Positions 4,600 through 12,000 of a DNA stretch of 64,000 bases are shown here, in pieces. The DNA is from Sphaerodactylus townsendi (Eukaryota), in NCBI RefSeq assembly GCF_021028975.2, contig NC_059427.1, forward strand, positions 71,548,001 to 71,612,000, in the 5' to 3' direction. A model generated the notes under the pieces. It made no database searches. It was not told the origin of the DNA and worked only from the letters and a program-made list of their open reading frames with translations. Both the position numbers and the translations under genes were made by a program. Numbering within the stretch: position 1 is the stretch's first letter; every line of letters starts with the position of its first letter.

Positions 4600-5350
4600 A
4601 ACGCGGGGCCCGAGGCTGTTCCTCCTGCCTTCTTCCTTCCTGGACACGCGAGACTTGCCAGAGGAATCTCAAACTCGCGGCCCTGAAGATCTCCCTGACT
4701 CAAATTCAACCGGATCCCGCCCCCCGCCCACTCCGGATTCTCACCTGCCCTCGCCGACCCAGCGCAGAGGCTCCGCCCCGCCCGGGATGGACAGCTTCAG
4801 CCTCCACAACATTTCCGTCAATCTCCCGTTCGAACTAACTGACCAATCAGTTTGCTTAACGTGTCCCAGCGGTCCAGGGAACCAATGCTGACCCAGACTC
4901 ATCGGATTTGCTGGCCAATCACTTTGTAAGCTATCCTGTTCCTACAGCAACGCGGAAACAACAAAAAAGGCGACGTTTTCGTCATATTATAGCGCCAGCA
5001 TTACTCTAGTGGACACGTCTCTCCCGGTGCCACGAAGCGGCGCTCAGGTTTCAAAGTATAAGCCCCGCCCTTCCAGGCTCCGCCTCCGAATGTCTTGTGA
5101 CGTCATCAGTGTGCGCTATGACGGTGCGCCTAGCAACAAAGGTTTCCCTGTGGAAAAGCCCCGTTTTGTTGCGGCAGCGTTTCTCTTACGTGATGCTGCC
5201 ATTCTTGGAGAAGCCTCGTTGATGCTGGATGGCATCTGTGGAGGTAGCCAATAAGCGAAGTGGTGTCTCCTTCCCTGGTTGACAGCGGAAGAAGGACTGG
5301 AGAGTCGCGATTTGGCCAGGAGCTTCTCTCGTGATTTGCCCAGGTGTTCT
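4600..5350. promoter_or_regulatory. CpG-island bidirectional promoter GMPPB/NICN1
   Basis: CpG-rich; three CCAAT boxes (4843, 4882, 4915), GC boxes (about 4717, 4773, 5063), full CRE TGACGTCA at 5098-5105, RFX-like GTTCCTACAGCAAC (4938-4951) and CCTAGCAAC (5129-5137). Probable non-coding GMPPB exon donor (minus, CAG/gtgaga) at about 4744. Confidence 0.75.
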
Positions 5351-5878
5351 GTTTCTTAGTATTGGTAGCTCCAATTAGAATTTTCCTTTGCTGACTGTCT
5401 GAGGAAGTACCGAAAGAAATGTGCATGCAACACAAAAACTTATATCAGGAATAAAACTTTGTTGGGCTTAAAGGTGCTACTGGACTTAAACTCTTGTCCA
5501 TAAGAGTATAAACGCAAGTTGTTAAACCGTTCTGCAGCATGTCCGAGTTTATTTCTGTGCATACTACCGTAGTCGGGGTGTGTGTCACAATGGGTTTAGT
5601 GGAGTTTACTCCGGAGTAAAGATGCATAGCTGTGAAGTGACTTGGTTATTGAAGTCTAAGCTTCCATAGGCTGCATTGAGACTTCCATCAGCTGCACAGA
5701 GAGCCATCAGGTTATGGGCTGTTCTGTGAAAACTTCCAGTGTTGGTAATGCCTCCCCCCTTACTGTGTGTATGGGTTATGGTATTTAGTAGTGCAGAATT
5801 TCCTGTGTTTTGATATGTGGATGTAATTATTATGATCCACTGAACTGAGCCTATGGCTATTTTTCCAGTATGGGGACC

Positions 5879-6010
5879 ATGACGCATGAGCCTGCACTAT
5901 GCACTATCAAAAGCCCTGTCATGCTGCAAGTGGGTGACATGAAGACCGAGCAAGGCCGACCAGGTGTTGCAGTGATTGATGTGATGCTGCCACACTCTCA
6001 GACCATTGAT
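5879..6010 (+). CDS. NICN1: NICN1 coding exon 1
   Basis: MTHEPALCTIKSPVMLQVGDMKTEQGRPGVAVIDVMLPHSQTID/gtgagt; acceptor cag at 5866-5868. Confidence 0.9.
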
Positions 6011-9000
6011 GTGAGTATAAGCAAAGAGGAAGCATAAATAATGGTGTAATTATAAACCTGTAATCCAACTTTTATCAATTGTATTGTTAGTTCTATACCT
6101 GAACCTTGCTGAGCACTTCTCAGCAAAGTTACACCCGTCTAAGCCCATTGAGTTTAATTGCTTTAGAAGGGTGTAATTCTGTTTAGAATTGTACTATAAG
6201 AGTTTGAGGCATTCATTTCCTGCTTCCAATCTGTATGTTAAAGAATAACTTCAGTTCCTTTAGCTTCTGGCTGAGGAACGCATGGCTGCGAACATCAAGA
6301 CTAGCAACAAACAGTTCTTCAAGTACATCAAAAGTAGGAAGCCAGCTAGGGAAGCGGTAGGCCCGTTAGATGACAAAGGAACAAAGGGTGTGCTAAAAGA
6401 TGACAGGGAGATTGCAGAGAAGCTGAATGAATTCTTTGCATCTGTCTTCACCCAAGAGGAGGTGAGGAAAATTCCTGCACCTGAACCAAGCTTCTTAGGA
6501 GGTGAATCCGAGGAACTAGCGAAGTTAGTGGTAGACAAGGAAGAAGTTCTGACAGCCATTGATAAACTAAATGCTACCAAATCCCCTGGCCCAGATTGCA
6601 TTCATCCAAGAGTTCTTAAAGAGCTCAAGCATGAAATTGCTGATGTTCTCACATTAATATGCAACTTATCCCTGAAATCTGCCTCCATCCCTGAAGACTG
6701 GAAGATGGCCAATGTCACACCAATCTTTAAGAAAGGGTCTAGGGGGGACCCGGGAAATTACAGGCCAGTCAGTTTGACATCTGTTCCTGGTAAATTAGTA
6801 GAATCTATCATTAAAGATAAAATTATAAAACATGTAGAAAAGCGAGACCTGCTGAGGAAGAGTCAGCATGGCTTTTGTAGAGGCAAGTCCTGTCTTACAA
6901 ACTTACTAGAGTTCTTTGAGGGTGTAAACAGACATGTGGATAAGGGGGAACCGGTGGACATTGTCTACTTGGATTTCCAAAAGGCTTTTGACAAAGTTCC
7001 TCACCAGAGACTGTTGAGAAAACTCAGCAATGAAGGAATAAGAGGAGAAGTCCTCCTATGGATTAAAAACTGGTTGAGGAACAGGAAACAAAGGGTGGGT
7101 ATAAATGGGAAGTTCTCACAATGGAGAGATGTAGGGAGTGGTGTCCCCCAAGGATCCGTTTTGGGACCAGTGCTCTTTAACCTATTCATAAATGACCTGG
7201 AAGTAGGGGTGGGTAGTGTGGTGGCCAAGTTTGCAGATGATACCAAATTATGTAGGGTGGTAAGAACCACAAAGGATTGCGAAGAGCTCCAAGCGGACCT
7301 TGATAAATTAGGTGAGTGGGCTAAGAAATGGCAAATGCAGTTCAATGTAGCAAAATGTAAAGTGATGCACATAGGGGCAAAAAATCCAAACTTCACATAC
7401 ACGCTACAGGGGTCAGTGCTATCAGTCACAGACCAGGAAAGGGATTTGGGCGTCTTAGTTGATAGTTCCATGGGAATGTCAACTCAATGCATGGCAGCTG
7501 TGAAAAAGGCAAACTCTATGCTGGGGATAATGAGGAAAGGAGTTGATAATAAAACTGCAAGGATTGTCATGCCCTTATATAAAGCAGTGGTGCGACCGCA
7601 CTTGGAGTACTGTGTTCAGTTCTGGTCGCCACATCTCAAAAAGGATATCGAAGAGATAGAAAAAGTGCAGAGAAGGGCAACGAGGATGATTGAAGGATTG
7701 GAGCACCTTCTTTATGAGGAGAGGCTGCAGCGTTTGGGACTCTTTAGTTTGGAGAGGAGACGTCTGAGGGCGGATATGATTGAAGTCTATAAAATTATGC
7801 ATGGGGTAGAAAATGTTGACAGAGAGACATTTTTCTCTCTTTCTCACAATACTAGAACCAGGGGGCATACATTGAAAATGCTGGGGGGAAGAATTAGGAC
7901 TAATAAAAGGAAACACTTCTTCACGCAACGTGTGATTGGTGTTTGGAATATGGAGGCCACAGGAGGTGGTGATGGCCACTAACCTGGATAGCTTTAAAAA
8001 GGGCTTGGGCAGATTTATGGAGGAGAAGTCAATCTATGGCTACCAATCTTGATCCTCCTTGATCTCAGATTGCAAATGCCTTAGCAGACCAGGTGCTCAG
8101 GAGCAGCAGCAGCAGCAGAAGGCCATTGCTTTCACATCCTGCATGTGAGCTCCCAAAGGCACCTGGTGGGCCACTGCGAGTAGCAGAATGCTGGACTAGA
8201 TGGACTCTGGTCTGATCCAGCAGGCTAGTTCTTATGTTCTTATGTTCTTATGATTTGTTTATTGATCAGCAATTGCAGGAGAAGTTGCCAATTGTTATAT
8301 ATTGGCAAGTTCTAATTTCACCCTTTGACCATAAGTAATTTATACATATTTAATTTATACATATTTAGTACGTTATTGATCTACTAATACACATCTTGAA
8401 GTCTGATTGGTTACCATTATTAATTATGAGGCAATTGTGCATGTATATTATTGACATTTCAGTAGTGAACAAACATATTATTACAATCAGTTATACTTAG
8501 TCTTAGCTAATATATTCCATTTAGTGGCTCACCAACAGAACAAAATATCTTTACCTTCAGCATTTCTTTCTGCTTCATGTATCATTTTCTCCATGATATG
8601 AAATCCTTTGATATATATCATTACCCCTGGTTTTCTACAGATTTGTCCCCCTCTCTATTAATAATACAGGTCCATAGTTAGAAGTGGAATGCGTGCAGAA
8701 CTTCAACTTTTTGGGGAAAAAGTAGTATAAAGATGTTAGATCATATGCTTAGTATTATCATTACTATTTCCTAAATGTACCATTACTTTTTACTTTATAT
8801 CTGGCATTAATTAGCCCAGCATTAATGTATTTTAGTTAATTTCTTTTCTCATAAGGTAGGGGAGATCTTGGCTCTCCTTGACTGCTGTCTCCCAAAACTA
8901 TCTGACTTGCAAGAAATTCAAAGTAGCTGGTCAGGTTACAGGCAGTATTGATTGCAGTTCTCTCCTACAGTTCTATGGCCTGGACTTGGAGGTCAGGGAA

Positions 9001-12000
9001 TATGTAACAATATGAAGAAAAGGGGCCATAATTATCTCCTAGCTAGATGGATCATGTACATTGCAGGCTATGCTAGTAAAAGATATATAGAGTTATCACA
9101 TGGGACCTTTGGTGTGGGAAGGGTTCATTTCAATTTACACATTTACTGAAAAGAAATACTACTGAGTTTTTTTGTAGAGCTCTCCTGCGGTTTGTATCTT
9201 ATGTTCCTTAGCGTCTACAAGTTTTTGACTTCATTCCATGAGTCTACCTGCCTTGGAGGTGTCAGGGTTCTTTACATAGCTTCAGGAAAAATATTAATGA
9301 CCTGAAGTGGCTGTCATACAGATAGATGCTTCTTTGACCCTAAGGTCACTCAGGTGAATAGGTGAATTCAGTAAATTATATCCCCTTTCTGTGGGATATA
9401 ATTAATAGTTATTAGTTAAAATAGTTAATAGTTAAAAAGAGTATTATAAAAATATCTCATACAACCAATTGAAACCAAAGCTATAAAATACACACAGAGA
9501 AACAAAAAATGTTTGCCTGCTGGTGGAAGATGACGGAAGGGAACAAACAAATATCTCTAGATAGGGAATTCCTTAATTGTGGTACTATGACCAAGAAGGC
9601 TCTCTTGGGTTGCCACTCATCTAGCCTCATGTATATATGAAGAAAAGGCTTTAGCAAGATATAGCAATCCCTTGTCGAAGGCTTTCACAGCCGGAATCAC
9701 TTGGGTGCTGTGTGGTTTCCGGGCTGTATGGCCGTGTTCTAGCAGCATTCTCTCCTGACGTTTCGCCTGCATCTGTGGCTGGCATCTTCAGAGGATCTGA
9801 AGATAGCAATCCCTAATTACGCCTGTTCCATCTTTTTCCAGACTGTCTTTATATGTTTTGTGAAAATTAGTTTCCTATTCTAAATACTTCACATAAACTG
9901 TCAACTGGTTTTCCAGACATTCATGCTGGATTCTTTGCTTCCAAATATTGATCCGAGTGTAGTTTAGTCACTGACTATGTCCTTAACTTCAATTTAAAAA
10001 CTTCCCATTTTTGACCCAAGATGTGGGCATTCTTGAATCCCTGGTGTTTAGGTGCACCCATTACACGATAGACAATGGAATGGGCAGGAACTCCATAAAT
10101 TGCTCTTTTTCTGGATATTCTATTTCTGTTCTCTTTTTTTTTTCAGTTGCAGGAAATTGTATTCAAGAACTATTACACAGCTTTTTTGAGCCTGCGGGTG
10201 CTGCGCCAAAGCACCACAGATGGTGGAGATGGAAGTCCTTCCAAATGGGTTACCTGCCTGCGAAACTATTGCTTGATGCCTAACCTGCATGCAGAGCAAG
10301 GTTCACAGGACTACTTCTCTGTTTCTAGGCATCAGGTCAGAATTTCAGCTTCTATTGGCATTTCAACTTATGCTGATATTTGATCTTCTTTACTTTAGTG
10401 CAAGATTTTTCTTGCCTGACACTCAGCCTGTGCTCTGCATGGTGTCCTTACTTTTCCTACAGCCTGACATAAATATTGCTCAGTAAATGTTGAAGGTTTC
10501 CATTCTAACTGCCTACTGTGCACTTTTCAACTCAAGGCATTAATGATGCTGTTCTGGCCCAGCTGCGATTTTGCTCATTAAGGCCAGTGTGAGTTCATTC
10601 TCTAGGGAAATGCAGAAAGCTCAGGCCTAGTGCACATAACCACTGCTAATAGCCTGGCACTTCCAGAAAAAGCTACTTATTAATGATGGGGATCACAGCC
10701 AAACTCCATTTTGCACTCTTGATGTTTCTGTGAGCTTTGTTACTCCTCACTGTCTTGACCTGGGGTTGTCTTACTGATGGATAAACTGATCCAGTCAAAC
10801 AGTTTATGATGGGTGAAAAGAATGTGCACTATTTTGAAACGAATATTCATTTATATAGCATTGACAGTGTGCAAGAGATCCGTTCTCTCCTTGCAGGATC
10901 TCTTTGAGGTAAATTGTGGTAGTTCCTGTAACTAAGGAAACTGGCAAACTATGGCAGAGAGCTGGCACTATGATTAATGAAGGACTGTTACTCCCTGATG
11001 GGAATCTATGTGGCAACTGTTCACTTTATTGCAAGGTGAACAGTTGCCACATAGATTCCCATCAGGGAATCCTGTCAGTACCCTCTGTCAGTTATGGCCA
11101 GAGCCTTTTCTGTTGCTGTGCTGCAACTGTGGTATGCATAGCTCCTCAGAAGGGATAAGGCAGGTGTCTTCCAGCAAGTTTGTAAAATATCTATTCAAGA
11201 GAGCTTATGGTACAGGGACTCTGTTCCTTTTAGAGACTGGGCTGGAAACCTTTTCACGAACTGTTTTTACCTGTAGAGCTGGGTTTCTAATAAAGTCTCC
11301 CTTGAAGGGCATGCTGCAATTGCCATGCACAACCCCAGAGTGCTAACATTCCCTTGCCCAGGGAACTGTACCAGCTCCAGCAAAAGTTGGATGGGATCTG
11401 GTACAGTTCACCCCACTCCATAGTTGTATTGTAGTAACCCTTGTTCCTTTCCCCCCTTCTTTAATGCAGAAGTGCTTCTGCCTTATTTCCATCTATTTCT
11501 TCCTGCAATTGTGTTCATTTCTTGCCTCTCTTGTTTTGCTAGATGCTTTGTGATATGGACCAGGTGGCTGCCATACGTCTGATCCTGCGTCAGCCTTCTC
11601 CAGTGTGGCTACATTTCAGCATTGAGGAGCTGCAGCTCATCCCTGCAAGTCAAAAGGTGTGTGCCCAGCCCCTCGTCAAAGCACATTTCTCTTACATAGC
11701 CATTGTTTTCATCCTTGTTGAGTCTTATGATGACTTATTGACTTACAGGGTCAGGGAAGGCTTTTTCAGGAGGCCCTAGAGCCTGACTTGTTTGTTTACC
11801 TGTTTCATATGTACCCTCGAAGATTAAAAAAATAAGGCCAAGACCGATGATGCAAAATAAGGTCAGAATATATTTTATTACTCACTTAAAACTCCCTAAA
11901 CATTTTGCCCAAGGGGCTTCTTCACAGCAGTCTGCTAGTCTTGCAATGGTATAAGATCTCTGATCTTATTCTCTTTGAAAAACCACTGCAAGACTAGGAA

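What the first reader, a model, noticed from the sequence alone, without database searches (positions are those of the whole stretch)
9661..9814. Intact minimal hammerhead ribozyme carried by a 130-bp Penelope fragment in NICN1 intron 1
Seen: the minus strand of 9753-9795 reads UCCU-CUGAAGA-UGCC..GGC-GAAAC-GUC-AGGA, with every conserved core nucleotide, a 4-bp helix I and a loopless palindromic ACGU helix III, inside an insert bounded by an 11-12 bp direct repeat. Established: Penelope-like elements carry minimal type I hammerheads that can only fold well as dimers. Inference: this is a young, precisely duplicated-target insertion that is little more than the ribozyme unit, possibly a non-autonomous retrozyme-like family. 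It lies antisense to NICN1, so the pre-mRNA is spared but antisense transcripts could be cleaved.
Basis: partly seen in the sequence, partly recalled or inferred. Interest (0 to 1): 0.7.

Follow-up and report, generated by a model that had tools for sequence, protein, structure and literature searches.

The report
Penelope stub; siblings record ribozyme cuts
This is one of at least 9,000 short copies of a known lizard jumping gene that carries a self-cutting RNA motif; this copy is likely silent, but a small class of its sister copies starts exactly at the predicted cut site, which likely records the ribozyme cutting in living cells.

Summary
The motif, the 130-bp insert and the 12-bp target duplication are real. 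The copy is not a retrozyme. It is bases -17 to about +114 around the start codon of a Poseidon-type Penelope-like element, 83% identical to Anolis PAc. Its 3' end is PAc's known internal reverse-transcription start. The genome holds 8,991 exact copies of the 43-nt motif. This copy lies antisense in NICN1, has no partner in the window, and its catalytic box is predicted to be locked in a hairpin, so it is likely inert.

The family is the interesting part. 5' ends pile up at -12/-13, likely the transcription start. In 50 of 95 head-to-head junctions near the ribozyme, 42 of 100 arm ends fall on +30, the first base after the predicted cut. Both arms do so in 17 of 50, none with microhomology. 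A second subfamily repeats the peak more weakly (17 of 100). This is likely a fossil of in vivo cleavage, about 1% of insertions. I did not find it in the papers searched; this scan's notes report it in other genomes.

The parts
9661..9672 (.). Target-site duplication, left copy (12 bp); its inner 1-2 bases also fit the element's 3' end
   Evidence: family D2
9673..9802 (-). Poseidon-type Penelope-like insert, element positions -17 to +113 (to +115 with overlap)
9673..9701 (-). Optional tail between the two family 3' ends (+85 and about +113 to +120), matching PAc's two reverse-transcription starts
   Evidence: (bimodal 3' ends)
9673..9785 (-). First 37 codons of the element ORF; ATG at 9785-9783
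   Evidence: continuation into the ORF in L148; PAc text
9753..9795 (-). Minimal type I hammerhead motif, all core bases present
   Evidence: definition
9756..9757 (-). Predicted cleavage site (+29/+30); sister copies start at +30
9784..9804 (.). Fold-back hairpin at the 5' junction (9-nt arms, 3-nt loop) that pairs the CUGAAG box
   Evidence: (I2)
9796..9798 (-). Family hot spot of 5' ends (-11 to -13), a predicted transcription start
9803..9814 (.). Target-site duplication, right copy (12 bp)
5870..6013 (+). NICN1 first coding exon (tblastn match; host gene)
10147..10335 (+). NICN1 second coding exon (host gene)

Best explanation
The insert is a 130-bp copy of the ORF-start region of a Poseidon-type Penelope-like retrotransposon, likely made by target-primed reverse transcription that began about 114 bases into the ORF and ran to the likely capped start of the RNA, and it is predicted to be inert in NICN1, while a minor class of sister copies likely came from RNA that the hammerhead had already cut. 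Shown: family membership, fixed 3' ends at +85 or about +118, paired long/short arms with target duplications, a pile-up of 5' ends at -12/-13, and a sharp second end at +30 without microhomology. Inferred: both ends of the cut target prime cDNA on element RNA; the cDNAs stop where the RNA stops; that is mostly the promoter start near -12, and in about 1% of insertions the ribozyme's 3' product. In this copy only one arm survived, and its cDNA end likely snapped back on a short hairpin and joined the target through a 2-base match. The template was uncut at this site, since the copy spans it.
For: 8,991 exact copies of the motif. Longer copies carry RVT_1 upstream (L133) and continue into the ORF downstream (L148). 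19 differences in 113 bases to PAc, counted by eye. PAc starts its ORF in stem II, cuts 26 bases after the start codon and starts reverse transcription at +111-118; all fit. Of 101 arms picked by a 3' anchor, 41 end at -19..-10, 4 at -49..-20 and 1 at +29..+31; a TATA-like box lies at -41 to -48. Cut-site class: 42 of 100 arm ends at +30, both arms in 17 of 50 junctions (strict recount 38 and 13); microhomology in 0 of 25 junctions with a +30 arm against 16 of 25 others (Fisher p 8e-7). Wider control: +30 is the top single position, 11 of 100 (3 loci shared). Second subfamily: 17 of 100, microhomology 0 of 16 against 13 of 34. L205 has two tandem arms that both start at +30, and L204 jumps template after +30.
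Against: No RNA data: no start site or cut was seen directly. Genome-wide apparent starts at +30 (215) are only 1.4 to 2 times the neighbours (150, 109, 108), and 4 of 20 inspected were explained by microhomology. Other junction clusters exist at +37 to +40 and +44. In the second subfamily only 1 of 50 junctions is +30 on both arms. The -12 hot spot sits on a GATC palindrome, and 15 of the first 50 junctions listed there are perfect folds on it (by eye). The test for a start shift with TATA spacing was inconclusive. Folding gives helix I a probability of 0.02 or less in every context tried. Frangieh et al. found no RNA-seq reads ending at the PAc cut site.
Confidence: 0.72

Rival explanations
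1. Same element and same inert locus, but the +30 ends come from the reverse transcriptase stalling at the folded ribozyme core or its dimer helix, not from a cut RNA.
For: The helix III palindrome ends at +28, next to the stop. Junctions also fold on that palindrome (15 of 100 arm ends at +24 in the second subfamily). No cut ends were seen in Anolis RNA-seq.
Against: The stop lies after helix I has already been copied. Ends are exact to the base, lack microhomology, and carry A/T-starting fillers or template jumps, which for R2 go with synthesis across separate templates (PMC8857657 abstract; the link to template ends is recalled).
Confidence: 0.15
2. The -12/-13 pile-up, and so the 130-bp size, comes from annealing or snap-back of cDNA ends on the GATC palindrome and the short hairpin, not from the RNA's start.
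For: 15 of the first 50 junctions are perfect GATC folds; palindromes at inverted junctions are described (PMC3846280); 27 of 101 arms run past -20.
Against: Single-arm copies that need no annealing also end at -11 to -15 (L033, L041, L075, L113). The drop upstream of -19 is steep. TATA spacing fits in the short-spacer subfamily. Some junctions end at -12 on both arms with A/T fillers.
Confidence: 0.3
3. A non-autonomous retrozyme-like family whose unit is the ribozyme.
For: The insert is little more than the ribozyme; many copies share its size; retrozymes are thought to derive from pLTRs (bioRxiv 10.64898/2026.07.22.740005).
Against: It is not a tandem of ribozyme units, its ends are not at the cut, its ribozyme is minimal rather than canonical, and it is continuous with the coding element on both sides.
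Confidence: 0.03
4. This copy cleaves antisense NICN1 transcripts or has been co-opted.
For: The core is intact, and the insertion is shared with a second organism.
Against: Intactness reflects youth (1 difference from sister copy L053 over +1..+113); there is no partner in cis; the core is predicted hairpin-locked.
Confidence: 0.04

Closest known systems
Poseidon_Ac / PAc of Anolis carolinensis (Frangieh et al. 2024, PMC11167929; parts 1-3 of 4 read, supplementary figures not visible)
   Same: ATG at stem II, cut 26 bases after the start codon, two 3' ends bounding a tail, A/T-rich targets, 83% identity over 113 bases by eye.
   Different: N7 is A rather than G and helix I has 4 rather than 3 pairs. 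The text read does not report genomic copies that start at the cut site and reports no RNA-seq reads ending there.
Minimal type I hammerheads of metazoan PLEs (Cervera and de la Pena 2014, PMC4209133; parts 1-2 of 4 read)
   Same: 4-bp helix I, unpaired base between A9 and G10.1, G10.1-C11.1 pair, palindromic loopless helix III, thousands of dispersed single copies.
   Different: Helix II is shorter here (3 bp plus 2 bp). The paper had no in vivo evidence of cleavage.
Inverted pLTR insertions with a one-sided tail (Arkhipova et al. 2013, PMC3846280; Craig et al. 2021, PMC8557442; passages read)
   Same: Head-to-head arms, tail on one arm, palindromes at the junction, short target duplications.
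   Different: This locus keeps one arm with only a 2-4 base fold-back. Base-level junction peaks at -12 and +30 are not in the passages read.
Metazoan non-LTR retrozymes (PMC7229834, passages; bioRxiv 10.64898/2026.07.22.740005, part 1 and passages)
   Same: Type I hammerhead, no intact protein, dependence on a PLE enzyme.
   Different: Retrozymes are tandem units with canonical ribozymes and circular RNAs; this is a single piece of the coding element.

Membership tests
EN+ Penelope-like element, Penelope/Poseidon clade | Reverse transcriptase ORF in longer copies | tested here: met
   RVT_1, E 1.9e-08, above cut-off, in L133
EN+ Penelope-like element, Penelope/Poseidon clade | C-terminal GIY-YIG endonuclease | tested here: inconclusive
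   A GIY-YIG-like stretch follows the RT in L006 and L133 (motif recognised from recall), but Pfam gave no hit on the broken pieces
EN+ Penelope-like element, Penelope/Poseidon clade | pLTR that includes the ORF start, with a hammerhead | tested here: met
   The same 130 bases end L133 and open the ORF in L148
EN+ Penelope-like element, Penelope/Poseidon clade | Optional 30-40 base tail, inverted 5' copy, target duplication | tested here: met
   Bimodal 3' ends; 64 of 101 arms with an inverted partner; long/short pairing in 42 of 50 and duplication of 7 or more bases in 42 of 50
EN+ Penelope-like element, Penelope/Poseidon clade | Placement in the Poseidon clade by RT phylogeny | not tested
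   Only the direct by-eye match to PAc
Minimal type I hammerhead ribozyme | Conserved core, helices I and II, palindromic helix III | tested here: met
   definition
Minimal type I hammerhead ribozyme | Self-cleavage after NUH | not testable with these tools
   Indirect family-level footprint at +30 only
Rfam hammerhead families | Covariance-model match | tested here: not met
   No match at E<=10
Non-LTR retrozyme | Tandem units each with a hammerhead | tested here: not met
   Single copy at the locus; sampled sisters are mostly single or head-to-head; no genome-wide tandem scan was run
Non-LTR retrozyme | Canonical hammerhead with loop 1-loop 2 contacts | tested here: not met
   Minimal form with a 4-bp helix I
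Non-LTR retrozyme | Circular RNA intermediate | not testable with these tools
   No RNA run available

The most novel reading that the evidence does not exclude
The insertion record of this family maps both natural 5' ends of its RNA to the base: the promoter start at -12 and the hammerhead cut at +30. The minimal Penelope hammerhead therefore cleaves in the germ line, and its 3' product, which keeps the internal priming sites, is still copied by both target ends, giving short dead hairpin insertions. The ribozyme would then act as a brake that removes the start codon and diverts templates, not as a maturation step.
Probability: 0.55. Interest if true: 0.72.

Novelty: new member of a known kind. 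Interest (0 to 1): 0.45.

Why it matters
The locus itself is ordinary. But whether Penelope minimal hammerheads cut in vivo is open: PMC4209133 says in vivo evidence is absent, PMC8557442 calls the function unclear, and PMC11167929 found no cut ends in RNA-seq. Junction positions in assemblies give a cheap read-out of cleavage that can be run on any genome with such a family, and they predict a clean mutant test in the published PAc system. The -12 pile-up would also explain why reptile genomes are full of ribozyme-sized stubs without invoking retrozymes.

Tried and rejected
Rfam: no hammerhead match. Whole-insert folding is not unusual (z -1.8). Pfam and PDB did not identify the NICN1 exon; a protein search did. 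Sequencing runs: no RNA holder listed. Empty site: no joint skipping the insert among the 15 of 63 joints shown. A contig of organism E runs 939 bases past the right flank without breaking, where organisms A and B break about 26 bases into the insert; this is only a hint that E lacks it. A C-to-T variant at +29 could fake +30 junctions; it is 1 of 86 in this subfamily and defines the second subfamily. The +84 marker test of a start-site shift was inconclusive. Core conservation above the neutral rate was not tested properly: copies are too young, CpG core bases decay (7-14 of 86) and the motif overlaps the ORF. The first variant scan had a faulty pattern and was redone. Literature; none of the texts or passages read reports genomic copies starting at the cut site. 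Subscription papers and PAc Fig. S2 (an image) were not seen and may bear on novelty.

Full report
Observation. The minus strand of 9753-9795 carries a complete minimal type I hammerhead inside a 130-bp insert between exact 12-bp repeats. A descriptor finds it once in the window and in 0 of 200 shuffles. Rfam does not detect it. The host gene is NICN1: the downstream exon matches nicolin-1 proteins, best 98% to a gecko record, and coding exons map at 5870-6013 and 10150-10338. The insert is antisense, about 330 bases before the acceptor.

Identity. The 43-nt motif has 8,991 exact matches in G000 and a 28-nt stretch further 3' has 15,469; arms of one insertion count separately. L133 is a 2.2-kb copy that ends in the same 130 bases and carries a reverse transcriptase domain. 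L148 continues past the insert's 3' end in an open frame that matches, by eye, the PAc template printed in PMC11167929. The insert differs from PAc at 19 of 113 bases from the ATG (by eye). In PAc the ORF starts at stem II, the cut is 26 bases after the start codon, and reverse transcription starts at +111-118 and at a second site that bounds the tail. Here 3' ends are bimodal, at +84-92 and +111-125 as scored, and this copy ends at +113 to +115. So the insert is the ORF-start region of a Poseidon-type element, not a retrozyme.

Age. The copy differs from sister L053 at one CpG base over +1..+113. Contigs of organism A (sample S2) and organism B run from both flanks into the insert; B's flanks differ by about 1-2%. 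The insertion is therefore young but older than that split, assuming vertical descent.

The 5' end. I took arms matching a 3' anchor in loci L031-L132 (101 arms, essentially the first 100 listed places of 15,469, all on contig C1). 41 end at -19..-10, 22 of them at -12/-13; 4 end at -49..-20; 23 run further; 64 have an inverted partner. Genome-wide, 5,203 arms appear to start at -12 and 3,079 head-to-head junctions lie around it. A TATA-like box lies at -41 to -43 in one subfamily and -48 in another; the bases around -13 fit an initiator consensus (recalled). I infer a transcription start, so the insert would be a complete run-off copy from the internal priming site. The rival is annealing on the GATC palindrome, and my test between them was inconclusive. 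This copy's junction is a 2-4 base fold-back; L075 has the same junction.

Is this copy active? Probably not. The fold-back lengthens a native hairpin, so CUGAAG is predicted at least 99% paired in the antisense context. There is no second copy in the window. Single minimal motifs did not cleave in PMC4209133, and PAc's needed protein. Folding also disfavours the ribozyme in native contexts (helix I probability 0.02 or less), so any activity in the family likely needs a partner or the protein.

The cut-site footprint. Apparent starts at +30 number 215, against 150, 109 and 108 at +29, +31 and +33: a modest excess. Head-to-head junctions are sharper. A pattern for arms meeting between about +20 and +35 found 95; I fetched the first 50. 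42 of 100 arm ends are at +30, against 8 and 7 at +29 and +31. Both arms end there in 17 junctions, 8 blunt and 9 with filler; a strict recount gives 38 ends and 13 junctions. No junction with a +30 arm shows microhomology (0 of 25) against 16 of 25 others (p 8e-7), and the two arms are coupled (p 2e-6). These are true insertions: 42 of 50 pair a long with a short arm and 42 of 50 have a duplication of 7 or more bases. A wider pattern (first 50 of 354; 3 loci shared with the first set) again has +30 as the top single end, 11 of 100, all without microhomology, once 9 ends scored at the anchor edge are set aside; other peaks at +37-40 and +44 lie on or next to short native palindromes. A second subfamily with a GUU triplet (first 50 of 86) gives 17 of 100 ends at +30 (p 3e-4 against an even spread over +26..+34), but only 1 two-armed case. 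L205 has two tandem arms that both start at +30, L204 jumps template after +30, and L148 has a jump at -10 followed by an arm from +30. Scaling 17 of 50 to 95 gives about 32 two-armed cases against 3,079 junctions near -12, about 1%.

Mechanism. Shown: positions, counts, junction types. Inferred: both target ends prime cDNA at +85 and +118 of element RNA, and each cDNA runs to the RNA's 5' end. That end is usually the promoter start and rarely the ribozyme's 3' product, which still holds both priming sites. Untemplated additions and jumps are known for R2 reverse transcriptase (PMC8857657, abstract and opening only). Stalling at the folded core is the main rival.

Comparison and novelty. Minimal hammerheads in pLTRs, tails, inverted arms and junction palindromes are all described. 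The locus is a new member of a known kind. The cut-site footprint was not in the texts or passages I read; PAc Fig. S2 was not visible. I reached it, which shows unreviewed notes of this scan reporting the same two ends in other genomes; these are not independent support. Interest is 0.45: an inert ordinary copy, with a testable family-level answer to an open question.

Noticed in passing
L004:2403-2647, L096, L218; A second Poseidon-type subfamily (about 82% identical) keeps the core, has GUU at the cut and lacks the GATC palindrome; its junctions often fold on the helix III palindrome.
   Followed up: partly
L148, L204, L205, L099, L102: Complex insertions with ORF pieces ending at +160 to +290 joined to a second arm, which looks like template jumping between RNA fragments.
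   Followed up: partly
L154-L203: 42 of 50 head-to-head insertions pair one +85 arm with one +118 arm; none was scored long/long and one short/short (7 unclear), suggesting each target end uses a different priming site.
   Followed up: partly
G000 listing: Among the first 100 apparent -12 starts, 19 are preceded by AT (by eye), a recurrent addition that I could not explain.
   Followed up: no
window 9755-9791, + strand: In the NICN1 sense direction the insert has a branch-point-like motif about 33 bases before an AG; a weak cryptic acceptor is possible (consensus recalled).
   Followed up: no
window 4950-5350: CpG-rich stretch about 500 bases before the NICN1 start codon; a non-coding first exon could change the intron number.
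   Followed up: no
P0002: A gecko record joins NICN1 and aminomethyltransferase domains in one protein, as do two mammalian records: a read-through or an annotation merge.
   Followed up: no
L036, about 900-1500 bases upstream of the copy: An open frame rich in Gly, Tyr, Cys and Pro that resembles a corneous beta-protein (recognised from recall).
   Followed up: no
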